DNA of 38,542 nucleotides. Source: a virus. Lineage: Duplodnaviria; Heunggongvirae; Uroviricota; Caudoviricetes. The stretch lies in IMG/VR virus record IMGVR_UViG_2531839531_000011; one strand, written 5' to 3'. The notes under the pieces were generated by a model, which was not told where the DNA came from, did not search any database, and was given only the letters and a program-made list of their open reading frames with translations. Position 1 is the first letter of the stretch. The number at the start of each line of letters is the position of its first letter. Below, piece by piece: positions 1 to 37,546 of this stretch. The position numbers were made by a program, and so were the translations under genes.

Positions 1-1020
1 TTAATCCCCCGTGGACACTGCGTGGACACTTACGCCACCTTTCAGCGGATTAAGGGCCACCGCATCCTGCAGGTAATCCGGTGCAAAATGTGCATATGCC
101 ATTGTTTGCTGAATGGTTGCGTGACCAAGAGTCTTCTGAAGCGCAATAATGTTTCCTCCGTTCATCACAAAATGGCTGGCGAACGTATGCCGCAGCACAT
201 GTGCAGCCTGGCCTTTTGGCAAATCGGGCTTAACTCTTTTCAGCGCCAGACAGAATTCCCGGTACTTCACCTCAAACAAGCCGCCTGTTTCTCTGGTTTT
301 GATCGCCTCACAAACTGCCTGCGAAATTGGCACCGTTCTCTTCCGACCATTTTTGGTTTCAAGAAACGTTACACGGTTATGAACTATCTGTTCACCACGA
401 AGCTTACAAGCTTCACTCCAGCGCGCCCCTGTGCTTAAACACAAAAGCGCAACACGCCAGTAGTCGCCCTCCAGTGTATCGAGCAATAGCGCTACTTCCT
501 TCTGGGACAGGAAAGCCATTTCTCGCGGGGATACATAAAGAATAGAAATCCCCCTTACCGGATGCTCTGCATCCCAGAGGCCTATTTTCTTCAGTACGGT
601 AAACATTCCGGATAACCGATTCATGTATCTGTTAGCAGATGACGGTTTCAATCCATCAGCTATCTTTTGAGAACGCCACGCGATAATTTTCAGCTTATCA
701 AGATCCACAGCCTGCATATCAGCGCCAAGCTCATTGATTATGTTGCGCAGTTGTTTTCGGTCTTCTTCCGCCTTACGCCTGTGCTGGCCGTGATACATCC
801 ACCACAACTCAAGCAAATCATTTAGCGTTCGACGATCACGGTAGCCCTGTATATATTCCCGCTTTTCAGCGTTCGCCATGATGTAGCGTTCAGTGGCCAC
901 CGCTACCGATTTTTTGTCAAATACCTTACGTACGCGCTTTCCCTTGCGTCCGTTCGGCCTGATGTCCAGCAAATAACGACCATCTTCGAGCTTCTTAATC
1001 GACATTGCGAAGCCCTCCAA
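1..1020 (-). CDS. int: Tyrosine integrase (P2 Int-like); true start may be the internal Met at MSIKKLEDGRY (~1005)
   Basis: 339-aa ORF; C-terminal catalytic-region residues (ARWSE, HVLRHTFASHF, LGHATIQQTMAYAHF) typical of phage integrases; position at prophage end next to repressor. Confidence 0.9.
   Translation of the reverse strand: MEGFAMSIKKLEDGRYLLDIRPNGRKGKRVRKVFDKKSVAVATERYIMANAEKREYIQGYRDRRTLNDLLELWWMYHGQHRRKAEEDRKQLRNIINELGADMQAVDLDKLKIIAWRSQKIADGLKPSSANRYMNRLSGMFTVLKKIGLWDAEHPVRGISILYVSPREMAFLSQKEVALLLDTLEGDYWRVALLCLSTGARWSEACKLRGEQIVHNRVTFLETKNGRKRTVPISQAVCEAIKTRETGGLFEVKYREFCLALKRVKPDLPKGQAAHVLRHTFASHFVMNGGNIIALQKTLGHATIQQTMAYAHFAPDYLQDAVALNPLKGGVSVHAVSTGD
11..28. other. Candidate attL core: 18-bp sequence gtggacactgcgtggaca, repeated directly (17/18) at 37363..37380; lies inside the last codons of int
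   Basis: Direct repeat seen by eye at both prophage ends; not statistically tested. Confidence 0.35.
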
Positions 1021-1101: not shown

Positions 1102-1689
1102 TCAGCGGGGTAATTTTTGTTTTGTTTCGGTTGAACTCTGATCGCCCTCCAAACTGGAGAAGCCATCAAGAGAGAGAGGCGGAGCAATCTGCCCCGTCGC
1201 AGCATTAGTTTGATTAAACATTACCCAATCCGAATACTTCCGAAAACGGGGATGATTCAAAATCAGGAGTAGCGTTTCTCCAGGCATCATTCTTCCCAAT
1301 ATTTCATAATTTTTGAGATTGTTTTGAGATACCCCTGTCATCTCTTCCATCGCTCTACGCGACAATCCCTCTGCCTCTCGAATCAGGCGGAGTTTTTCTC
1401 CAAGCTCAGATACCACTTCAGATCCATTACCAGCCAATGGCGTGGGTTCAATTTGCCCATTATCTGGAGACACTTGCCCAGTCATAAGCCAAAGCGCGTA
1501 TTTTTTGAACCTATCAACCTGTAAAACTCGCTCAACCAACTCTGCTCTAGCAGGCTGATGACCTGTTTCATATTTCTGAATAGTATTAAGTGGAATCCCT
1601 GTAATATCAGAGAATTGACGTCTGCTTAACTCTTCCGCCTCCCTCATTCTCATGAGTCTTTGCGAATAGTCTATTGACACGTTTCTCAT
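1102..1689 (-). CDS. Immunity repressor candidate with two tandem XRE-type helix-turn-helix domains (ORF extends to 1737; start at MRNVSIDY preferred)
   Basis: Duplicated motif (LSRRQFSDITGIPLNTIQKYETG and LSRRAMEEMTGVSQNNLKNYEILG); aaggag RBS before second ATG; divergent from cox-like gene. Confidence 0.7.
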   Translation of the reverse strand: MRNVSIDYSQRLMRMREAEELSRRQFSDITGIPLNTIQKYETGHQPARAELVERVLQVDRFKKYALWLMTGQVSPDNGQIEPTPLAGNGSEVVSELGEKLRLIREAEGLSRRAMEEMTGVSQNNLKNYEILGRMMPGETLLLILNHPRFRKYSDWVMFNQTNAATGQIAPPLSLDGFSSLEGDQSSTETKQKLPR

Positions 1690-1739
1690 GCGAGAAATAT
1701 ACTCCTTTCTAAATTGAGAAATGCAAGAACAACTCAAAT

Positions 1740-6124: not shown

Positions 6125-8947
6125 ATGACGGCAGAGTACATCAGGGACTGGCAACAACCGCGCCACGCAGTGGGGCGTGAAGGAACGGGGATCCCCGCTC
6201 CTGAATCCGCGCTTTCCTCCTGGCTGGATGCCTACCGGGCAGAGAACGAGCGCCGCCAGGAAATGGCTGATGCGGCGTTCTCCGCCACGCCGCTGGGCAA
6301 CCTGATTAATAAAAGCCTGGACGCACAGGAAAAACAGGACAAAACCATCACACTGGCAGGAGACGCCAGAAAACAGGCACGCGGCGCGGTGGATGAAGCC
6401 ATGGCCTCGCTGCGCCTGCTGCCGTCCTATCTGCGCGATCCGCTTATTCGCCACCTCTCCTTCCTGCGCAAAAAACAGGAAGCCGATCGCCGGAAAGGCA
6501 AAAAGAGCTGGCAGGCTGAACGCTACGCGCGCGGAACCCTGCGCAAAATATTCGAACGTCTGGAGCGCACCGACAGCCGCTGGCTGACACCGGGTTATCG
6601 CTCCCTTGCCGGACGCGAACGCCTGGACGATTTGCTTTACCTGCCGCAGCTTAACAAGCACCAGATACAGACGCTGGCCACCATGACGGCGGCAATGTTC
6701 AGCAGCACCTTTGAGACTCTCTGTGATGGTTTCGGTGCCAGAGATGGCGAGCTGACCATGGATGTAACGCTGAAGGCGTATCAGATGCTGGCCCGCATGG
6801 CGTTACACCTGCACGCCATGCCTCCACATTATGACGCACTGACAACAGACAAAGACCGGAGGAACGAACCGGACACGGAACTGCTGCCGGGCGCAATCCT
6901 TCGCCTGACCTGTGCGGACTGGTGGAAACGCAAACTGTGGCTGTTACGTTGTGAGTGGCGGGAAGAACAACTCCGCGCCGCCTGTCTGGTTTCCAGAAAA
7001 ACATCACCCTATCTGAGCCAGGACGCGTTAAGCGAGTTTCGCGCACAGCGCGAGAAAACACGCGATTTCCTGAAAAGTTTCATGCTGGAAAATGAAGACG
7101 GGTTCACGATTGATCTCGAGACGGTGTATTACGCGGGAGTAAGTAACCCGGTTCACCGTAAGGCAGAAATGATGGCCACCATGAAGGGACTGGAACTTCT
7201 GGCCGAAGCCCGTGGCGACAAAGCGGTGTTTCTGACTGTCACCTGCCCGTCAAAATACCACGCCACAACAGAGAACGGTCATCCGAATCCCAAATGGAAC
7301 GGGGCCACCATGCGCGACTCCAGCGATTACCTGGTTAACACGTTTTTTGCGGCGGTCCGCAAAAAACTGAACCGCGACGGCCTGCGCTGGTATGGCATCC
7401 GCACGGTGGAGCCTCACCATGACGGCACCGTGCACTGGCATATGATGGTCTTTGCTCATCCGGAAGAAATCGACACCATTGTGTCCCACACCCGCGATAT
7501 TGCCATTCAGGAAGACCGCCACGAACTGGGCAATGATATTACTCCGCGCTTTAAGGCGGAGTACGTCGACGGCTCAAAAGGCACGCCAACCAGCTACATC
7601 GCCACCTACATCGGAAAGAACCTGGACAGCCACGCCGTGGATGGCATCGACCCGAAAACGGGCAAGCCACGCGTTGACCACGAAACCGGAAAATCAATGG
7701 CCGAGAGCGTGGAGCGCGCCATCGGCTGGGCGCGCCTTCACCGGGTCCGCCAGTTCCAGTTCTTTGGCATCCCCTCCCGTCAGGTGTGGCGTGAACTGCG
7801 CCGCCTTGCCAGCCAGATGGCACGCAACCCGGAAGGCCCGCAACGACTGAAGGATGACGCAATGGATGCAGTGCTCGCTGCCGCTGATGCCGGGTGTTTT
7901 GCCTCCTACATTGAAAAACAGGGCGGCGTACTTGTTCCACGCAAAGACTACCTGATTCGCACCGCCTACGACCTCGCAGATGAGCTGAACGATTACAGCG
8001 AACAGAGCGTACAGATTTACGGGATCTGGTCACCACTCATCGGGGAGTCCTCCCGTGTGTGCACGCATCCGGATAACTGGAAGCTGGTAAGACGCAAACC
8101 GGAAGCGGAAGACAGCGCCCGCGAAAATGGTTTTGACCTTCAGGGCGGCCCTGCCGCCCCTTGGACTCGTGGCAATAACTGTCCCCGTGTACAGGAAACG
8201 GACAACAACGGGACAGAACAGCCGGAAGAACGGCCAGCACCGTGGCCGCAGCTCCCTGACGGCGTTGAAGTGAACGAATGGATGCGCTCACTGAAACGGC
8301 ACGAACGCCGGGCGCTGATGCGTTCGCTTCGTGACAAACAGGCAAAAAACAGCAGTGATGAAATGCAGAGCTGGACACAGAGCCGCAAACAGCAGCGGCC
8401 TTTGCCTGATAACCACGAATTACTCGCTAAAGAATGGCGGGAGTCTGCTGAATCTCTCGGCCTGCATATCGGTGAACAGCAGATGCAGCACCTGTTACGG
8501 GGCGGCAGTCTGTACGTTGACGGCAGCATCATTGCACCGCAGGGATTTGAAATTGTACGCAAACCGGATACCCGCCCGGACAGCCGAATCACGCAGCTCT
8601 GGCAGCGCCTGAGCCGTAATCACGGCGTAAGCAGCACGGAGATCCGCCATAACCCGGTCGCCAGCTATCTGGCACAGCTGGGGGCATCAGACCCCGAAGC
8701 CGCCGCACGCCTGGCATCCACACTTCAGCAGGACCAGAACACCATGAAAACACCCGTTACCGTGCTTTCTGACATGCTGCGCGCCATCCGCGACGCAGAG
8801 TACGCACAGAGAATCTGTGAAACCACTGAACGCGCCCACCGCAAAGCAGACCTGCTGCGGGGTGGCCTGACCCGTGGGAACAAAAAACAGACAGAAACGG
8901 GATTCACAAATCCCGTAAATGAGCAAAAAACGCGCCGCGATATATGA
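6125..8947 (+). CDS. A: Replication initiation endonuclease (P2 gpA-like rolling-circle initiator) with long C-terminal extension
   Basis: 940 aa; motifs HDGTVHWHMMVF and YIATYIGK match the histidine and catalytic-tyrosine motifs I recall for GPA-family initiators. Confidence 0.85.
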   Translation: MTAEYIRDWQQPRHAVGREGTGIPAPESALSSWLDAYRAENERRQEMADAAFSATPLGNLINKSLDAQEKQDKTITLAGDARKQARGAVDEAMASLRLLPSYLRDPLIRHLSFLRKKQEADRRKGKKSWQAERYARGTLRKIFERLERTDSRWLTPGYRSLAGRERLDDLLYLPQLNKHQIQTLATMTAAMFSSTFETLCDGFGARDGELTMDVTLKAYQMLARMALHLHAMPPHYDALTTDKDRRNEPDTELLPGAILRLTCADWWKRKLWLLRCEWREEQLRAACLVSRKTSPYLSQDALSEFRAQREKTRDFLKSFMLENEDGFTIDLETVYYAGVSNPVHRKAEMMATMKGLELLAEARGDKAVFLTVTCPSKYHATTENGHPNPKWNGATMRDSSDYLVNTFFAAVRKKLNRDGLRWYGIRTVEPHHDGTVHWHMMVFAHPEEIDTIVSHTRDIAIQEDRHELGNDITPRFKAEYVDGSKGTPTSYIATYIGKNLDSHAVDGIDPKTGKPRVDHETGKSMAESVERAIGWARLHRVRQFQFFGIPSRQVWRELRRLASQMARNPEGPQRLKDDAMDAVLAAADAGCFASYIEKQGGVLVPRKDYLIRTAYDLADELNDYSEQSVQIYGIWSPLIGESSRVCTHPDNWKLVRRKPEAEDSARENGFDLQGGPAAPWTRGNNCPRVQETDNNGTEQPEERPAPWPQLPDGVEVNEWMRSLKRHERRALMRSLRDKQAKNSSDEMQSWTQSRKQQRPLPDNHELLAKEWRESAESLGLHIGEQQMQHLLRGGSLYVDGSIIAPQGFEIVRKPDTRPDSRITQLWQRLSRNHGVSSTEIRHNPVASYLAQLGASDPEAAARLASTLQQDQNTMKTPVTVLSDMLRAIRDAEYAQRICETTERAHRKADLLRGGLTRGNKKQTETGFTNPVNEQKTRRDI

Positions 8948-8989
8948 AGCGCGCACAAAACAGGCAAAAACGGGATTTCAGAATCCCGT
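8897..8989. promoter_or_regulatory. Two copies of a 20-bp palindrome ACGGGATT-N4-AATCCCGT (8897..8916 inside the A 3' end; 8970..8989 upstream of parM); candidate ParR-binding centromere/operator or terminator
   Basis: Perfect 8-bp inverted repeats read directly, spaced ~73 bp. Confidence 0.4.
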
Positions 8990-9023
8990 AAACGATTAAT
9001 TAATCAACATAAGGAAAATCGAC

Positions 9024-23362: not shown

Positions 23363-25729
23363 ATGAGTACCACAACACGAAAATTTAAAACCGTTATCAC
23401 CGATACGGGTGCAAAAAAATTAGCTCAGGCAGCCGCGCCAGATGGTAAGCCTGTCCGCCTGACTCATATGGCCGTGGGCGACGGTGGCGGCACGTTGCCC
23501 ACACCAGACAGTAAGCAGACCCGTCTGGTGCATGAGGTGTGGCGACACACTGTTAATCGCGTCATCCTGGACGCAACACATCAGAACCGCATTATTGCGG
23601 AGCTGGTTATTCCTCCTGAAACGGGCGGATTCTGGATCCGGGAAATTGGTGTATTTGATGAGCACGGCGATTTAATCGCGGTGGGCAATACTGCCGAAAG
23701 TTACAAGCCAGCCGTTGCCGAAGGGTCCGGTCGTGCACAAACGTTTCGCACCATTCTGACCGTATCCAGCACTGCCACCGTGGCGCTTACCGTGGATAAC
23801 ACCATGGTGATGGCCACAGTGGATTACGTGGATGACAAACTGAAAGAGCATGAACGGTCACGACATCACCCGGACGCCTCGCTGACCGCAAAAGGCTTTG
23901 TTCAACTCAGTAGCGCCACTAACAGCGTGTCTGAAACGCAGGCTGCAACGCCGAAAGCAGTAAAGGCAGCATATGACCTGGCTAATGGCAAATACACCGC
24001 ACAGGACGCTACCACTGCGCGGAAAGGGATAGTTCAGCTCAGTAGCGCCACCAACAGCACGTCTGAAACGCAGGCTGCAACGCCGAAAGCAGTAAAGACC
24101 GCGTATGATCTTGCTAACGGTAAATATACTGCGCAGGATGCCAGCACGACGCGAAAAGGCCTTGTCCAGCTCAGTAGCGCCACCAACAGCACGTCTGAAG
24201 CGCAGGCTGCAACGCCGAAAGCAGTAAAGGCCGCGTATGACCTTGCTAGCGCAAAATATACCGCTCAGGACGCCACGACGACACAAAAAGGGATAGTCCA
24301 GCTTAGTAGTGCCACCAACAGCACGTCTGAAACACTGGCCGCGACACCGAAAGCGGTTAAGGCGGTAATGGATGAAACGAACAAGAAAGCGCCTTTAAAC
24401 AGTCCTGCGCTGACCGGAACGCCAACAACGCCAACTGCGCCAAAAGGGACTAATAATACTCAGATCGCAAGCACGGCTTATGTGATGGCCGCGATTGCCG
24501 CACTTGTAGACTCGTCGCCTGACGCACTGAATACGCTGAACGAGCTGGCGGCGGCGCTGGGCAACGACCCGAATTTTGCGACCACCATGACTAACGCGCT
24601 TGCGGGTAAGCAACCGAAGGATACCACCCTGACGGCGCTGGCCGGGCTTGCTACTGCGGCAGACAGGTTTCCGTATTTTACGGGGAATGATGTCGCCAGC
24701 CTGGCAACTCTGACAAAAGTCGGGCGGGATATTCTTGCGAAATCGACCGTTGCCGCCGTTATCGAATACCTCGGTTTACAGGAAACGGTAAATCAGGCTT
24801 CTGGCGCATTACAGAAAAACCAGAACGGCGCAGATATTCCGGGAAAAGATACCTTCACCAAAAATATTGGGGCCTGCCGCGCATATAGCGCATGGCTGAA
24901 TATTGGTGGCGATAGTCAGACCTGGACAACTGCGCAATTTATTTCGTGGCTGGAGAGTCAGGGGGCATTTAACCATCCTTACTGGATGTGCAAAGGCTCA
25001 TGGGCTTATGCAAATAATAAGGTCATTACAGATACAGGTTGCGGAAATATTTGTCTTGCAGGTGCTGTGGTGGAAGTTATTGGCACTCGCGGCGCAATGA
25101 CCATACGCGTTACTACGCCGAGCACGTCCAGCGGCGGCGGAATTACTAACGCTCAATTCACCTATATTAATCATGGTGATGCTTATGCTCCTGGCTGGCG
25201 ACGAGACTACAACACGAAAAACCAGCAGCCTGCATTTGCTTTAGGGCAGACAGGAAGCAGGGTTGCAAATGATAAAGCTGTTGGCTGGAACTGGAATAGC
25301 GGTGTTTATGATGCAGATATCAAAGGCGCAACAGCATTAATACTCCACTTCAATATGAATACGGGGAGTTGCCCTGCTGTACAGTTCCGCGTGAATTACA
25401 GGAACGGCGGTATCCTTTATCGTTCAGCGCGTGATGGTTATGGCTTTGAAGATAACTGGTCAGCGTTTTACACCACAACCTACAAACCCTCTGCGGGGGA
25501 TGTTGGTGCATATACCAAAGCGGAATGTAACTCAAAGTTTATTACAGGTATTCGTCTGGGCGGTCTGTCATCTGTTCAGACATGGAATGGTCCCGGCTGG
25601 TCTGACAGGTCAGGTTATGTCGTTACGGGTTCAGTTAACGGAAACCGTGATGAATTAATTGATACAACTCAGGCAAGGCCAGTTCAGTATTGCATTAATG
25701 GAACGTGGTATAACGCAGGGAGTATTTAA
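23363..25729 (+). CDS. H: Tail fibre protein (P2 gpH-like) in the expressed orientation, with internal tandem repeats
   Basis: 788 aa; conserved N-terminus; ends ...INGTWYNAGSI before the chaperone gene. Confidence 0.9.
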   Translation: MSTTTRKFKTVITDTGAKKLAQAAAPDGKPVRLTHMAVGDGGGTLPTPDSKQTRLVHEVWRHTVNRVILDATHQNRIIAELVIPPETGGFWIREIGVFDEHGDLIAVGNTAESYKPAVAEGSGRAQTFRTILTVSSTATVALTVDNTMVMATVDYVDDKLKEHERSRHHPDASLTAKGFVQLSSATNSVSETQAATPKAVKAAYDLANGKYTAQDATTARKGIVQLSSATNSTSETQAATPKAVKTAYDLANGKYTAQDASTTRKGLVQLSSATNSTSEAQAATPKAVKAAYDLASAKYTAQDATTTQKGIVQLSSATNSTSETLAATPKAVKAVMDETNKKAPLNSPALTGTPTTPTAPKGTNNTQIASTAYVMAAIAALVDSSPDALNTLNELAAALGNDPNFATTMTNALAGKQPKDTTLTALAGLATAADRFPYFTGNDVASLATLTKVGRDILAKSTVAAVIEYLGLQETVNQASGALQKNQNGADIPGKDTFTKNIGACRAYSAWLNIGGDSQTWTTAQFISWLESQGAFNHPYWMCKGSWAYANNKVITDTGCGNICLAGAVVEVIGTRGAMTIRVTTPSTSSGGGITNAQFTYINHGDAYAPGWRRDYNTKNQQPAFALGQTGSRVANDKAVGWNWNSGVYDADIKGATALILHFNMNTGSCPAVQFRVNYRNGGILYRSARDGYGFEDNWSAFYTTTYKPSAGDVGAYTKAECNSKFITGIRLGGLSSVQTWNGPGWSDRSGYVVTGSVNGNRDELIDTTQARPVQYCINGTWYNAGSI
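23894..24375 (+). repeat. Tandem 132-bp (44-aa) tail-fibre repeats, about 3.6 copies (KG-VQLSSATNS-SETQAATPKAVKAAYDLANGKYTAQDATT)
   Basis: Repeats visible in both the H translation and the DNA. Confidence 0.75.
24759..24784. other. gix/hix-like inversion crossover site (TTATCGAATACCTCGGTTTACAGGAA) inside H
   Basis: 26 bp; inverted copy at 27686..27711 differs at two positions; resembles the Gin gix consensus. Confidence 0.7.
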
Positions 25730-35627: not shown

Positions 35628-35813
35628 ATGTGGAAAGGCCCCGAGTCAACTTTAACGTTAACCCGAGGCCCTAACCATCTACCCTTAGCAAGTGATAGGT
35701 TAGCGCCTCCCCGAAAAAGGAGCAAGCGCTATGTCGCAAAAATCGCTTACGGCCATCACGTTCTGCGTGACGGCAATCCTCATCATCTGGATGCTGCACG
35801 GTTCGCTGTGTGA
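35628..35813 (+). CDS. Mok-like overlapping reading frame (modulator of hok translation)
   Basis: 61-aa ORF overlapping the hok-like start in another frame, as in hok/mok/sok loci. Confidence 0.4.
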   Translation: MWKGPESTLTLTRGPNHLPLASDRLAPPRKRSKRYVAKIAYGHHVLRDGNPHHLDAARFAV

Positions 35814-35871
35814 AATACGGATGAGCTTCTGGGGAGCGGAGTTTGCGGCGTTCTTACAGTGTAAGCAGTAA
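35731..35871 (+). CDS. Hok/Gef-family type I toxin (46 aa)
   Basis: MSQKSLTAITFCVTAILIIWMLHGSLCEIRMSFWGAEFAAFLQCKQ; hydrophobic helix plus SLCEIR signature; below ORF-track size cut-off. Confidence 0.7.
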   Translation: MSQKSLTAITFCVTAILIIWMLHGSLCEIRMSFWGAEFAAFLQCKQ

Positions 35872-35880
35872 GGAAACCGC

Positions 35881-35902
35881 GACGGGGGAGTAATCCCCCG
35901 TC
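35881..35902 (+). terminator. Hairpin GACGGGGGA-gtaa-TCCCCCGTC at the 3' end of the hok-like transcript
   Basis: 9-bp perfect stem read directly. Confidence 0.4.
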
Positions 35903-36048
35903 AATCAGTTGCCAGGATAAGGTCGATAAGGCATCCTGTCTCACTCTATACCAGCTAATCAATTGACACATATCAATAAAAAGCCTGATAAAATCAAAAT
36001 GTTTTGTTACAAATGTCAGCTAGTAGAGGGCCAAAGGAGGCAGATTAT

Positions 36049-36381
36049 ATGGCATTAATCAAATGTCCTGAATGCCAGAAAGAGGTGATCGATTCAGTAT
36101 TGTCTTGCCCTGCTTGTGGCAAACAACTGAAAAATCTTAAACGCTCATTTTTTGGAGAACTCATTAAGTGTTTTTTTATATTATTTAATGTTTTTATAAT
36201 CTACACGATTTGTATTGGGCTAAGAGAGGTGGGTGAAATAATAAACAACGCCACATCCGATGCCGAAAAAGCCGGTACAGTTATTGGTACGGGCTTAGGT
36301 TTAATTGCTATTGGAGGCTTATGGGTTATTGGCAATATCATTATCGGAAATTTAGTATTTCTTACTAAACCAAAGGGATAA
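36049..36381 (+). CDS. Zinc-ribbon (CPEC...CPAC) membrane protein, AT-rich cargo gene
   Basis: AGGAGG RBS before MALIKCPECQ; N-terminal Cys4 ribbon followed by two or three hydrophobic helices. Confidence 0.55.
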   Translation: MALIKCPECQKEVIDSVLSCPACGKQLKNLKRSFFGELIKCFFILFNVFIIYTICIGLREVGEIINNATSDAEKAGTVIGTGLGLIAIGGLWVIGNIIIGNLVFLTKPKG

Positions 36382-36385
36382 CAAA

Positions 36386-37279
36386 ATGAAAAATGTGATT
36401 ATTTCTATAGGCGCATCATTTATATCAATTAGTGTGCTACCTGCTCACGCAGCAACTGAGCATAATAACTTTAAGTCATCACTCCAGTGCCGAGCAATAG
36501 AAAATAATAAAGAAAGACTTTCTTGTTATGATAAGTCAATACAACCGACTCGAACGACAGTTGCTGAAAAATTCGAAAGCAGAGATCAATGCCCTGATGA
36601 GAAAGATGATGACAGACGTTTATCTTGTTATGACCGTTTTTTTTCTCCAACATTTACTCCGCCTGTAAGCTCAAAATCTAAAGTGAAACAGCTAGTAACA
36701 ACAGAGACTCAGCAACCAAATCTTTCTGAGATATCTAAATGTCGAGCAGAAAACGATAAAGAAACTAGAGTAAACTGCTACGATAAACTATTTCCACAGG
36801 AAAAAGCTACGCAATCTAAATCAAAATTAGAGAAAGCCACAGACTCAGGAAAATGGCACACATCCATTACTACATCGCCAATTGATGATTCGAAAAATGT
36901 AATTTTATCGTTAGAAAGTGATGATTATATAAGAACTCCATTTGGAGAAGCGGTTACCCCTACTCTGTTTATAGCTTGCCGAGAAAAGAAAACCGAAGTA
37001 TTTCTTAATTGGGATGTATATTTAGGCCTTGAACAAACCAGCATGCTGTATCGCCTTGATAAACAGAAAGCAGTTGAGCGAAACTGGCTAGTATCTACAG
37101 ATACAAAGGCTGTTTTTTATAAAGGCAATGACATTAACTTCATCAGAAAACTAGCCAACTCAAACAAAATGTATGCAAGAATAACCCCTTATAATGAAAG
37201 CCCTGTAAGTGCAACTTTCAATTTAAACGGCCTGTCAACCACGCTAAAACCGCTTCAAGAAGCCTGTAACTGGAAATAG
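36386..37279 (+). CDS. Secreted protein with three Cys-containing repeats (C-x10-R-L/V-S/N-CYDK/R) and a C-terminal domain, AT-rich cargo gene
   Basis: 297 aa; signal peptide ...VLPAHAAT; repeats at RLSCYDK, RLSCYDR, RVNCYDK. Confidence 0.6.
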   Translation: MKNVIISIGASFISISVLPAHAATEHNNFKSSLQCRAIENNKERLSCYDKSIQPTRTTVAEKFESRDQCPDEKDDDRRLSCYDRFFSPTFTPPVSSKSKVKQLVTTETQQPNLSEISKCRAENDKETRVNCYDKLFPQEKATQSKSKLEKATDSGKWHTSITTSPIDDSKNVILSLESDDYIRTPFGEAVTPTLFIACREKKTEVFLNWDVYLGLEQTSMLYRLDKQKAVERNWLVSTDTKAVFYKGNDINFIRKLANSNKMYARITPYNESPVSATFNLNGLSTTLKPLQEACNWK

Positions 37280-37309: not shown

Positions 37310-37347
37310 GATAACACAAAGCCCGTGAAAACGGGCTTTGTGTTATC
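37310..37347. terminator. Strong bidirectional terminator: 16-bp perfect inverted repeat GATAACACAAAGCCCG-tgaaaa-CGGGCTTTGTGTTATC
   Basis: Read directly, just after the cargo genes. Confidence 0.6.
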
Positions 37348-37362
37348 TATAACTCGAAAATG

Positions 37363-37380
37363 TGGTCACTGCGTGGACAT
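37363..37380. other. Candidate attR core (gtggtcactgcgtggaca), direct repeat of 11..28
   Basis: 17/18 match to the sequence at the int 3' end; lies between cargo genes and host flk. Confidence 0.35.
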
Positions 37381-37546
37381 GCGCCGATACAAATCCTTTT
37401 ATATCAAAAAGTTAAATCAACATCTTTTTCATCAACAAGGATTTTCACGTTTGTGTTACCTGTATGAGACGAGAGTTAACCGGACAAGTGTGCCATAATC
37501 TCGCGGCCAGGCATACTTGCGAAGATTTCAGGTATAAGGATACGTA

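What the first reader, a model, noticed from the sequence alone, without database searches (positions are those of the whole stretch)
37363..37380. Candidate att cores: 18-bp direct repeat at both prophage ends, left copy inside the int coding end
gtggacactgcgtggaca at 11..28 and gtggtcactgcgtggaca at 37363..37380 match 17/18 in direct orientation, bracketing int...ogr plus cargo. The left copy encodes the last residues of Int (VHAVS), so attP would overlap the int 3' end. This places the hok and AT-rich cargo inside the prophage and the insertion just upstream of flk.
Basis: seen in the sequence. Interest (0 to 1): 0.4.

Follow-up and report, generated by a model that had tools for sequence, protein, structure and literature searches.

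The report
P2-type integrase arm sites, not cores
The 18-bp repeat at the two prophage ends is real, but it is the pair of integrase "arm" binding sites that flank the attachment site of P2-like phages; the true crossover core is a different 20-bp sequence in the start of the host gene pdxB, so this is an ordinary, already described feature.

Summary
It matches 17/18, in direct orientation, and is far beyond chance.

It is not the att core.
- Prophage-free E. coli K-12 lacks the 18-mer. Its homology to the window starts only at 37426.
- The sequence shared by attL, attR and attB is TTTTCATCAACAAGGATTTT (37426..37445), which is pdxB codons 2-8.
- The attL copy lies about 183-202 bp left of window base 1, outside the window.
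- The packaged phage P88_4B11 (Int 99.4% identical) carries both 18-mers in one uninterrupted attP, 276 bp apart, with the core between them.
- Phage PhiSM (Int 98.2% identical) has a published, experimentally mapped attB at this pdxB site.

Each 18-mer is two 8-bp boxes (C/T)GTGG(A/T)CA, 11 bp apart. They match the P2-type arm consensus tgTGGaCa. They sit where the P2 record annotates the Int "P arm" and "P' arm", including the P' arm inside the int 3' end.

An IHF consensus site lies between the right-hand boxes and the core.

Verdict: a known feature, of low interest.

The parts
10..28 (+). P' arm of attP, which lies in attL of the prophage. It is two direct 8-bp Int arm-type boxes, CGTGGACA at 10..17 and CGTGGACA at 21..28, 11 bp apart. 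It sits inside the int 3' coding end, over codons S326-T332.
   Evidence: It is in the same register relative to the int stop as the P2 'P' arm' protein_bind feature: in both phages the 18-mer starts 10 nt after the first base of the stop. It is the best conserved 18-nt stretch of int DNA against P2, at 17/18 versus a mean of 10.3 and sd of 2.6.
37361..37379 (+). P arm of attP, which lies in attR of the prophage. It is two direct arm-type boxes, TGTGGTCA at 37361..37368 and CGTGGACA at 37372..37379, 11 bp apart.
   Evidence: It aligns column for column with the P2 P arm (TGTGGTCAaTGTGTGGACG) and the WPhi P arm. Homology between prophages carrying different cargo starts at 37353, just outside the first box.
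37402..37414 (+). IHF consensus site TATCAAAAAGTTA (WATCAANNNNTTR), between the P arm and the core.
   Evidence: It is one of only 2 matches in the whole window. It lies in the block AAATCCTTTTAT.TCA....TT, which is conserved with P2 and WPhi and which the P2 record annotates as the IHF binding site.
37426..37445 (+). True att core, attR copy: TTTTCATCAACAAGGATTTT. This is the reverse complement of pdxB codons 2-8.
   Evidence: It is the only stretch shared by attB (K-12), attL (AJ1), attR (the window and Br_178) and the ends of the PhiR44_2 record. It occurs once in the window. It contains the 17-bp PhiSM attB ATCCTTGTTGATGAAAA, mapped experimentally in K-12 (PMC6456863). A plasmid secondary site shares exactly those 17 bp.
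37426..37448 (-). Orphaned 5' end of pdxB: the GTG start at 37448..37446 plus codons 2-8. The insertion separated it from the rest of the gene, which lies left of the window.
   Evidence: In K-12 the pdxB CDS start aligns to window 37448. In lysogen AJ1, pdxB is annotated 8 codons shorter and lies left of int.
1..1005 (-). int: a P2-type heterobivalent tyrosine integrase of 334 aa.
   Evidence: Pfam Int_N and Phage_integrase. It is 99.4% identical to the Int of phages PhiR44_2 and P88_4B11, 98.2% to PhiSM Int and about 50-53% to P2 Int. The N-terminal arm-binding region MSIKKLEDGRYLLDIRP... keeps Y11, D14 and R16.
37310..37347 (+). Hairpin with a 16-bp stem (gataacacaaagcccg / cgggctttgtgttatc) immediately before the P arm. 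It occupies the position of the ogr terminator that precedes the P arm in P2.
   Evidence: Read from the sequence and aligned with the P2 and WPhi terminators. The consensus terminator scan did not call it, so its function is inferred.
35731..37279 (+). Cargo between ogr and attP: hok (35731..35871), a zinc-ribbon membrane ORF (36004..36381) and a VasI/TagO-like ORF (36386..37279). GC is 36-40%. It lies inside the prophage.
   Evidence: Pfam HOK_GEF, Zn_Ribbon_1 and VasI; GC profile. The same genes lie between ogr and attP in the phage genomes PhiR44_2, P88_4B11 and PhiSM. In Br_178 they are replaced by Com plus a DNA methyltransferase.

Best explanation
The two 18-mers are the arm-type binding sites (P and P') of the attP of a P2-like temperate phage (Peduoviridae, genus Xuanwuvirus: the P88_4B11 / PhiSM / PhiR44_2 type).

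In the circular phage the layout is: cargo terminator hairpin, P arm (2 boxes), 46 bp containing an IHF site, 20-bp core, 192 bp, then the P' arm (2 boxes) inside the last codons of int.

The inferred mechanism follows the P2 and lambda paradigm.
- The small N-terminal domain of Int binds the (C/T)GTGG(A/T)CA boxes, while its core-binding and catalytic domains bind the core.
- IHF bends the P arm so that one Int molecule can bridge arm and core, forming the intasome.
- Strand exchange takes place in the 20-bp core, against the identical sequence at codons 2-8 of pdxB.
- Cox presumably binds in the 192-bp core-to-P' spacer to direct excision.

Integration splits attP at the core. One arm therefore ends up at each end of the prophage, in the same orientation. 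This is why they look like terminal direct repeats. The P arm is 46 bp inside attR (window 37361..37379). The P' arm is 192 bp inside attL (window 10..28). The attL core itself is outside the window.
For: Shown here:
1. attB, attL and attR share only TTTTCATCAACAAGGATTTT. The 18-mer is absent from the empty site.
2. The intact attP of packaged phage P88_4B11 contains both 18-mers 276 bp apart, with the core between them.
3. The PhiR44_2 record is cut exactly at the core. The circular PhiSM record has the P' arm on one side of the core and the P arm on the other.
4. The P2 RefSeq record annotates these Int/IHF/Cox binding features: P arm 24293-24320, IHF 24324-24357, core 24356-24383, Cox 24399-24472, and P' arm 24470-24496 inside the int 3' end. 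The P2 sequences TGTGGTCAaTGTGTGGACG and TGTGGACActGTGTGGACA are nearly identical to the window's, at the same places and the same 11-bp period.
5. An IHF consensus lies between the P arm and the core.
6. The 18-mer is the most conserved 18 nt of int DNA against P2, although it encodes a non-catalytic tail that WPhi Int lacks.
7. The Int N-terminal domain is P2-type.

From the literature:
[quoted passage not shown] Y, D and R are proposed as the discriminating residues (PMC3448106).
- The attB of PhiSM was mapped experimentally to the pdxB 5' end (PMC6456863).
Against: - No binding or mutational data exist for this particular phage. The assignment rests on positional and sequence homology to the sites annotated for P2.
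- The left flank of this genome is not in the window. The attL core position is extrapolated from relatives whose int is 97-99% identical.
- The core-to-P' spacer is 192 bp, against 89 bp in P2. I could not identify convincing Cox boxes in it.
Confidence: 0.9

Rival explanations
1. One reading: the 18-mers are the att cores. The crossover would occur within them, attP would carry one copy overlapping the int 3' end, and attB would carry one copy upstream of flk.
For: A 17/18 direct repeat lies close to both ends of the prophage. Terminal direct repeats are the usual signature of att cores.
Against: - The empty site in K-12, and most of the 5426 complete E. coli genomes, align to the window only from 37426 on. 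K-12 has no 18-mer.
- Prophage DNA continues about 200 bp left of the left copy and 46 bp right of the right copy.
- Phage genomes carry two copies, not one.
- P2 and WPhi carry the same boxes but integrate at unrelated attB sites.
Confidence: 0.01
2. A chance or coding-driven repeat with no DNA-level function. The left copy would be conserved only because it encodes the Int tail.
For: The left copy is coding. Across all pairs of positions in a 38.5-kb window, about 0.6 direct 17/18 matches are expected by my own back-of-envelope estimate, not a tool result.
Against: - The right copy is non-coding.
- The same tandem boxes occur exactly twice in every related attP examined, and nowhere else in the window.
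- The stretch is the most conserved of int DNA against P2, although it encodes a dispensable tail that WPhi Int lacks. In WPhi the boxes lie just downstream of the stop.
Confidence: 0.02
3. Binding sites for another phage regulator, such as Cox or the C repressor, and not for Int.
For: Cox also binds repeated boxes in P2 attP, and its footprint reaches the int stop (PMC3936717).
Against: - The P2 record assigns these exact sequences to Int and a separate interval to Cox.
- The boxes are conserved between phages that differ in their repressors. The Cox of this window is only 58% identical to P2 Cox, while the boxes are about 95% identical.
- The published consensus tgTGGaCa is for Int arm sites.
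Confidence: 0.04

Closest known systems
Bacteriophage P2 attP (P arm, IHF site, core, Cox boxes, P' arm)
   Same: - Two direct 8-bp boxes at an 11-bp period on each arm, all in one orientation, matching tgTGGaCa.
- The P arm directly follows a terminator hairpin and is followed by the conserved IHF block.
- The P' arm lies in the last codons of int, in the same register to the stop codon.
- The Int N-terminal domain is conserved.

   Different: - The core and attB are unrelated: P2 has the 27-bp AAAAAATAAGCCCGTGTAAGGGAGATT, this phage has a 20-bp core in pdxB.
- The core-to-P' spacer is 192 bp here and 89 bp in P2.
- About 1.8 kb of cargo (hok, a zinc-ribbon ORF, a VasI/TagO-like ORF) lies between ogr and the P arm, whereas in P2 ogr abuts attP.
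- Int is only about 50-53% identical.
Citrobacter rodentium phage PhiSM (Shae_phiSM), Escherichia phages P88_4B11 and PhiR44_2 (genus Xuanwuvirus)
   Same: - Int is 98-99% identical.
- The attP is the same, with both arm pairs and the pdxB core.
- The cargo next to attP is the same.
- The phage-borne AAGGAG + TTG start reads into truncated pdxB.

   Different: - The window's immunity region differs: its repressor ORF is up to 211 aa with two HTH domains.
- The rest of the genome is mosaic. The best E. coli match is about 95-97% identical over about 90% of the first 25 kb.
- The PhiSM paper, as far as I read it, describes only the 17-bp core and not the arm sites.
Lambda attP arm-type sites (P1, P2, P'1-3)
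   Same: The logic is the same. A heterobivalent tyrosine integrase bridges distant arm sites and the core with IHF bending. Arm sites end up at both prophage ends after integration. This rests on established knowledge, not on a test made here.
   Different: The box sequence, number and spacing differ. The directionality factor is Cox and not Xis. There is no sequence homology.

Membership tests
att core (identity segment where strand exchange occurs) | The same sequence is present once in the unoccupied bacterial site (attB). | tested here: not met
   The K-12 pdxB-flk region has no match to the 18-mer with up to 3 mismatches. Homology to K-12 starts at 37426.
att core (identity segment where strand exchange occurs) | It lies exactly at the host/prophage sequence boundary on both sides. 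| tested here: not met
   The right copy ends 46 bp inside the boundary. The left copy is 192 bp inside the attL core in lysogen AJ1.
att core (identity segment where strand exchange occurs) | A single copy is present in the excised or packaged phage genome (attP). | tested here: not met
   P88_4B11 attP has both copies, 276 bp apart. P2 and WPhi likewise have two.
P2-type Int arm-binding sites (P and P' arms of attP) | [quoted passage not shown] | tested here: met
   The boxes are CGTGGACA and CGTGGACA (10..28), and TGTGGTCA and CGTGGACA (37361..37379). The consensus is from PMC3448106.
P2-type Int arm-binding sites (P and P' arms of attP) | Position in attP: the P arm lies after the terminator and before the IHF site and core; the P' arm lies at or within the int 3' end. 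| tested here: met
   Alignment with the annotated P2 features and with WPhi. An IHF consensus lies at 37402..37414.
P2-type Int arm-binding sites (P and P' arms of attP) | The cognate integrase has a P2-type N-terminal arm-binding domain, with the Y / D / R discriminator residues proposed in PMC3448106. | tested here: met
   Y11, D14 and R16 are invariant in the alignment with P2 and WPhi Int. The N-terminal ~40 residues are more conserved than the rest (the discriminators are).
P2-type Int arm-binding sites (P and P' arms of attP) | Physical binding by Int, and a requirement for recombination. | not testable with these tools
   This needs footprinting or EMSA and box mutagenesis. The P2 record annotates binding features only for P2 itself.
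PhiSM-type integration at pdxB | The core contains ATCCTTGTTGATGAAAA at the 5' end of pdxB, and the phage end supplies AAGGAG + TTG in frame with truncated pdxB. | tested here: met
   The core at 37426..37445 contains the reverse complement of the 17-mer. The in-frame reading TTG-SETEKGL-KILVDENMPY was found in lysogen AJ1. The left flank of this window's own genome was not available.

The most novel reading that the evidence does not exclude
The P' boxes lie inside the int 3' end, and int is transcribed towards the chimeric, phage-started pdxB about 200 bp downstream. Occupancy of the P' arm and the neighbouring spacer by Int and Cox could therefore act as a roadblock or switch on read-through transcription into pdxB. 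That would couple vitamin B6 synthesis in the lysogen to the state of the prophage. Nothing here tests this. The PhiSM paper instead predicts a dedicated phage-borne promoter.
Probability: 0.05. Interest if true: 0.4.

Novelty: already known. Interest (0 to 1): 0.1.

Why it matters
It matters mainly as a correction for annotation. In P2-like prophages the most conspicuous terminal direct repeat is the arm-site pair, not the core. Using it to call boundaries here would misplace attL by about 200 bp and attR by about 50-65 bp. It would also miss that the phage integrates inside pdxB and supplies a new start for it. The biology itself is already described: P2-type arm sites, and pdxB integration with a phage-borne TTG start.

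Tried and rejected
1. I looked for Cox boxes in the 192-bp core-to-P' spacer and in the Pe/Pc region. Only short, weak repeats turned up (CTGAAAAA-like, TAAGCC-like). I assign nothing from them.
2. The strict tandem-box pattern gave no hit in SEN5 or phiT5282H (Int about 56% identical). Inspection showed that they use TGTAGACA-type boxes in the same layout. This is a variant box, not an absence of arm sites.
3. I tried to find the exact source genome in order to read its own left flank. The best complete E. coli genome is only about 95-97% identical over about 90% of the first 25 kb. The attL position is therefore taken from relatives: AJ1, whose int region is 99.3% identical.
4. No tRNA or tmRNA target lies in the window, so a tRNA-type attB was rejected.
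5. The terminator scan did not call the hairpin before the P arm. I list it as a hairpin only.

Full report
**Observation.** The window opens with the stop codon of a minus-strand integrase gene (stop 3..1, ATG 1005..1003).
- GTGGACACTGCGTGGACA lies at 11..28 and GTGGTCACTGCGTGGACA at 37362..37379.
- The two copies match 17/18 in direct orientation. With up to 3 mismatches they are the only occurrences in the window, against 0.01 expected from shuffles.
- Each copy is itself two 8-bp boxes, (C/T)GTGG(A/T)CA, spaced 11 bp start to start. That degenerate tandem pattern occurs only at these two places.

**Where the prophage really ends.** I searched the right junction against 5426 complete E. coli genomes.
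- Every genome matches, but most, including K-12, match only from window 37426 rightwards. There the features under the match are pdxB and flk.
- In K-12, pdxB is transcribed divergently from flk, and its start codon aligns to window 37448..37446.
- In lysogen AJ1 (int region 99.3% identical) a pdxB annotated 8 codons short lies to the left of int, with 203 bp between its annotated start and the int stop.
- Aligning attB (K-12), attL (AJ1), attR (the window and strain Br_178) and the two ends of the phage PhiR44_2 record shows one common segment, TTTTCATCAACAAGGATTTT.
- In the window this segment is 37426..37445. It occurs once. It is the reverse complement of pdxB codons 2-8.
- The attL copy is 183-202 bp to the left of window base 1, so it is not in the window.
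- The K-12 empty site contains no 18-mer, even with 3 mismatches.

**Phage genomes settle the question.**
- Int is 99.4% identical to that of phages PhiR44_2 and P88_4B11 (genus Xuanwuvirus) and 98.2% identical to that of Citrobacter phage PhiSM.
- In the packaged P88_4B11 genome attP is uninterrupted. It reads P-side 18-mer, 46 bp, core (one mismatch to the host), 192 bp, then the int-side 18-mer inside the int 3' end. The two 18-mers are 276 bp apart and are the top direct repeat of the region.
- A core would be present once in attP, so the 18-mers are not cores.
- The PhiR44_2 record is cut exactly at the 20-bp core.
- For PhiSM, the attB was mapped experimentally in K-12 to the 17 bp ATCCTTGTTGATGAAAA, 6 bp inside pdxB. 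That paper also describes a phage-borne AAGGAG + TTG that reads into the truncated pdxB, and lysogens grow on minimal medium (PMC6456863).
- I find the same in-frame TTG-SETEKGL-KILVDENMPY in lysogen AJ1.
- The same prophage end sits in a plasmid (p120899_146). The junction there is TTTTCATCAACAAGGAT|ctttctg, so only those 17 bp are shared with the secondary site.

**What the 18-mers are.** The P2 RefSeq record annotates these binding sites:

| Feature | P2 coordinates |
|---|---|
| Int "P arm" | 24293-24320 |
| IHF | 24324-24357 |
| attP core | 24356-24383 |
| Cox | 24399-24472 |
| Int "P' arm" | 24470-24496 |

- The P' arm lies 8 bp inside the int CDS, which ends at 24462.
- The P2 sequences are TGTGGTCAaTGTGTGGACG (P arm) and TGTGGACActGTGTGGACA (P' arm). 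They have the same two-box structure, the same 11-bp period and the same orientation as the window's. In both phages the P' 18-mer starts 10 nt after the first base of the int stop.
- An alignment of terminator, P arm, IHF block and core shows the boxes and the block AAATCC.TTTA..TCA....TT invariant among this prophage, Br_178, PhiR44_2, P2 and WPhi. The cores that follow are unrelated.
- The window has an exact IHF consensus, TATCAAAAAGTTA, at 37402..37414. It is one of only two in the window.
- Nilsson et al. [quoted passage not shown] These are bound by the N-terminal domain of Int, with Y, D and R as candidate discriminating residues (PMC3448106).
- The window's Int has Y11, D14 and R16 and a strongly conserved N-terminal 40 residues.
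- Against P2, int DNA is 57% identical overall, but the 18-mer is the best conserved 18-nt stretch of the whole gene (17/18; mean 10.3, sd 2.6). This holds although it encodes a tail beyond the catalytic domain that WPhi Int lacks. In WPhi the boxes lie just downstream of the stop. That points to constraint at the DNA level.
- More distant relatives (SEN5, phiT5282H) keep the layout with TGTAGACA boxes.

**Mechanism.**
- Shown: the anatomy of attP, attL, attR and attB, and the homology to the annotated P2 sites.
- Inferred from the P2 and lambda paradigm: the Int N-terminal domain binds the four boxes. IHF bends the P arm. Int bridges the arms and the core to build the intasome. Exchange takes place in the 20-bp core. 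Cox acts in the long core-to-P' spacer during excision.
- Integration cuts attP at the core. The P arm therefore stays with attR (flk side) and the P' arm with attL (pdxB side), in the same orientation. This mimics terminal direct repeats.

- hok (35731..35871, Pfam HOK_GEF), a zinc-ribbon ORF and a VasI/TagO-like ORF (GC 36-40%) lie between ogr and the P arm. They are carried in the phage genomes PhiR44_2, P88_4B11 and PhiSM, so they are inside the prophage.
- In Br_178 the slot holds Com plus a DNA methyltransferase instead, and homology resumes at 37353, just before the first box.
- The insertion is 101 bp upstream of the flk ATG (37547), but its target is the pdxB coding start.

**Novelty.** Nothing here departs from described biology. 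P2-type arm sites are established, and the pdxB attB with its replacement start was published for a phage whose Int is 98% identical. Roughly 300 of 5426 complete E. coli genomes carry this int. Interest is low. The practical lesson is that terminal repeats in P2-like prophages can be arm sites and will misplace the boundaries.

Noticed in passing
left of window base 1 (L002 2799-2860); window 37426-37448: The phage integrates inside pdxB at codons 2-8. Its left end supplies AAGGAG + TTG in frame (TTG-SETEKGL-KILVDEN...), which replaces the lost start. This was already published for PhiSM (PMC6456863). RefSeq annotates pdxB in lysogens from Met9 instead.
   Followed up: yes
L015 3030-3120 (plasmid p120899_146, NZ_CP025917.1): The same prophage right end (cargo, P arm, IHF site, core) occurs on 9 E. 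coli plasmid records. In this plasmid it is joined to a truncated topoisomerase-like gene after just the 17-bp core. This is a secondary attB on a plasmid, and the prophage there looks degraded (a group II intron and truncated genes).
   Followed up: partly
window 1102-1737 (-): The immunity-repressor ORF next to int is up to 211 aa long, with two helix-turn-helix domains (Pfam HTH_3 at 28-73, HTH_31 at 111-154). In relatives with nearly identical int the C repressor is 100-112 aa. This looks like a different, duplicated-HTH immunity type. Homology to the closest int region ends at about 1100.
   Followed up: partly
window 36004-37279; L003 5032-5965: The slot between hok and the P arm is an exchangeable cargo site. 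Here, and in PhiSM, P88_4B11 and PhiR44_2, it holds a zinc-ribbon membrane ORF plus a VasI/TagO-like protein (PF11319) at 36-40% GC. In strain Br_178 it holds Com plus a DNA methyltransferase.
   Followed up: partly
L012 and L013, about 2000-2220: Salmonella phage SEN5 and Enterobacter phage phiT5282H have the same attP layout, but with TGTAGTCA/TGTAGACA boxes instead of TGTGGACA. This is a variant arm specificity within the P2-type group.
   Followed up: no
window 23890-24361: There are three tandem copies of a 132-bp unit (84-86% identical) inside the tail-fibre gene (23363..25729).
   Followed up: no
window 8881-8995: Two 42-nt direct repeats lie 73 bp apart (81% identical), each containing a small hairpin (aacgggattt...aatcccgt). 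They sit just after the replication gene (6125..8947).
   Followed up: no
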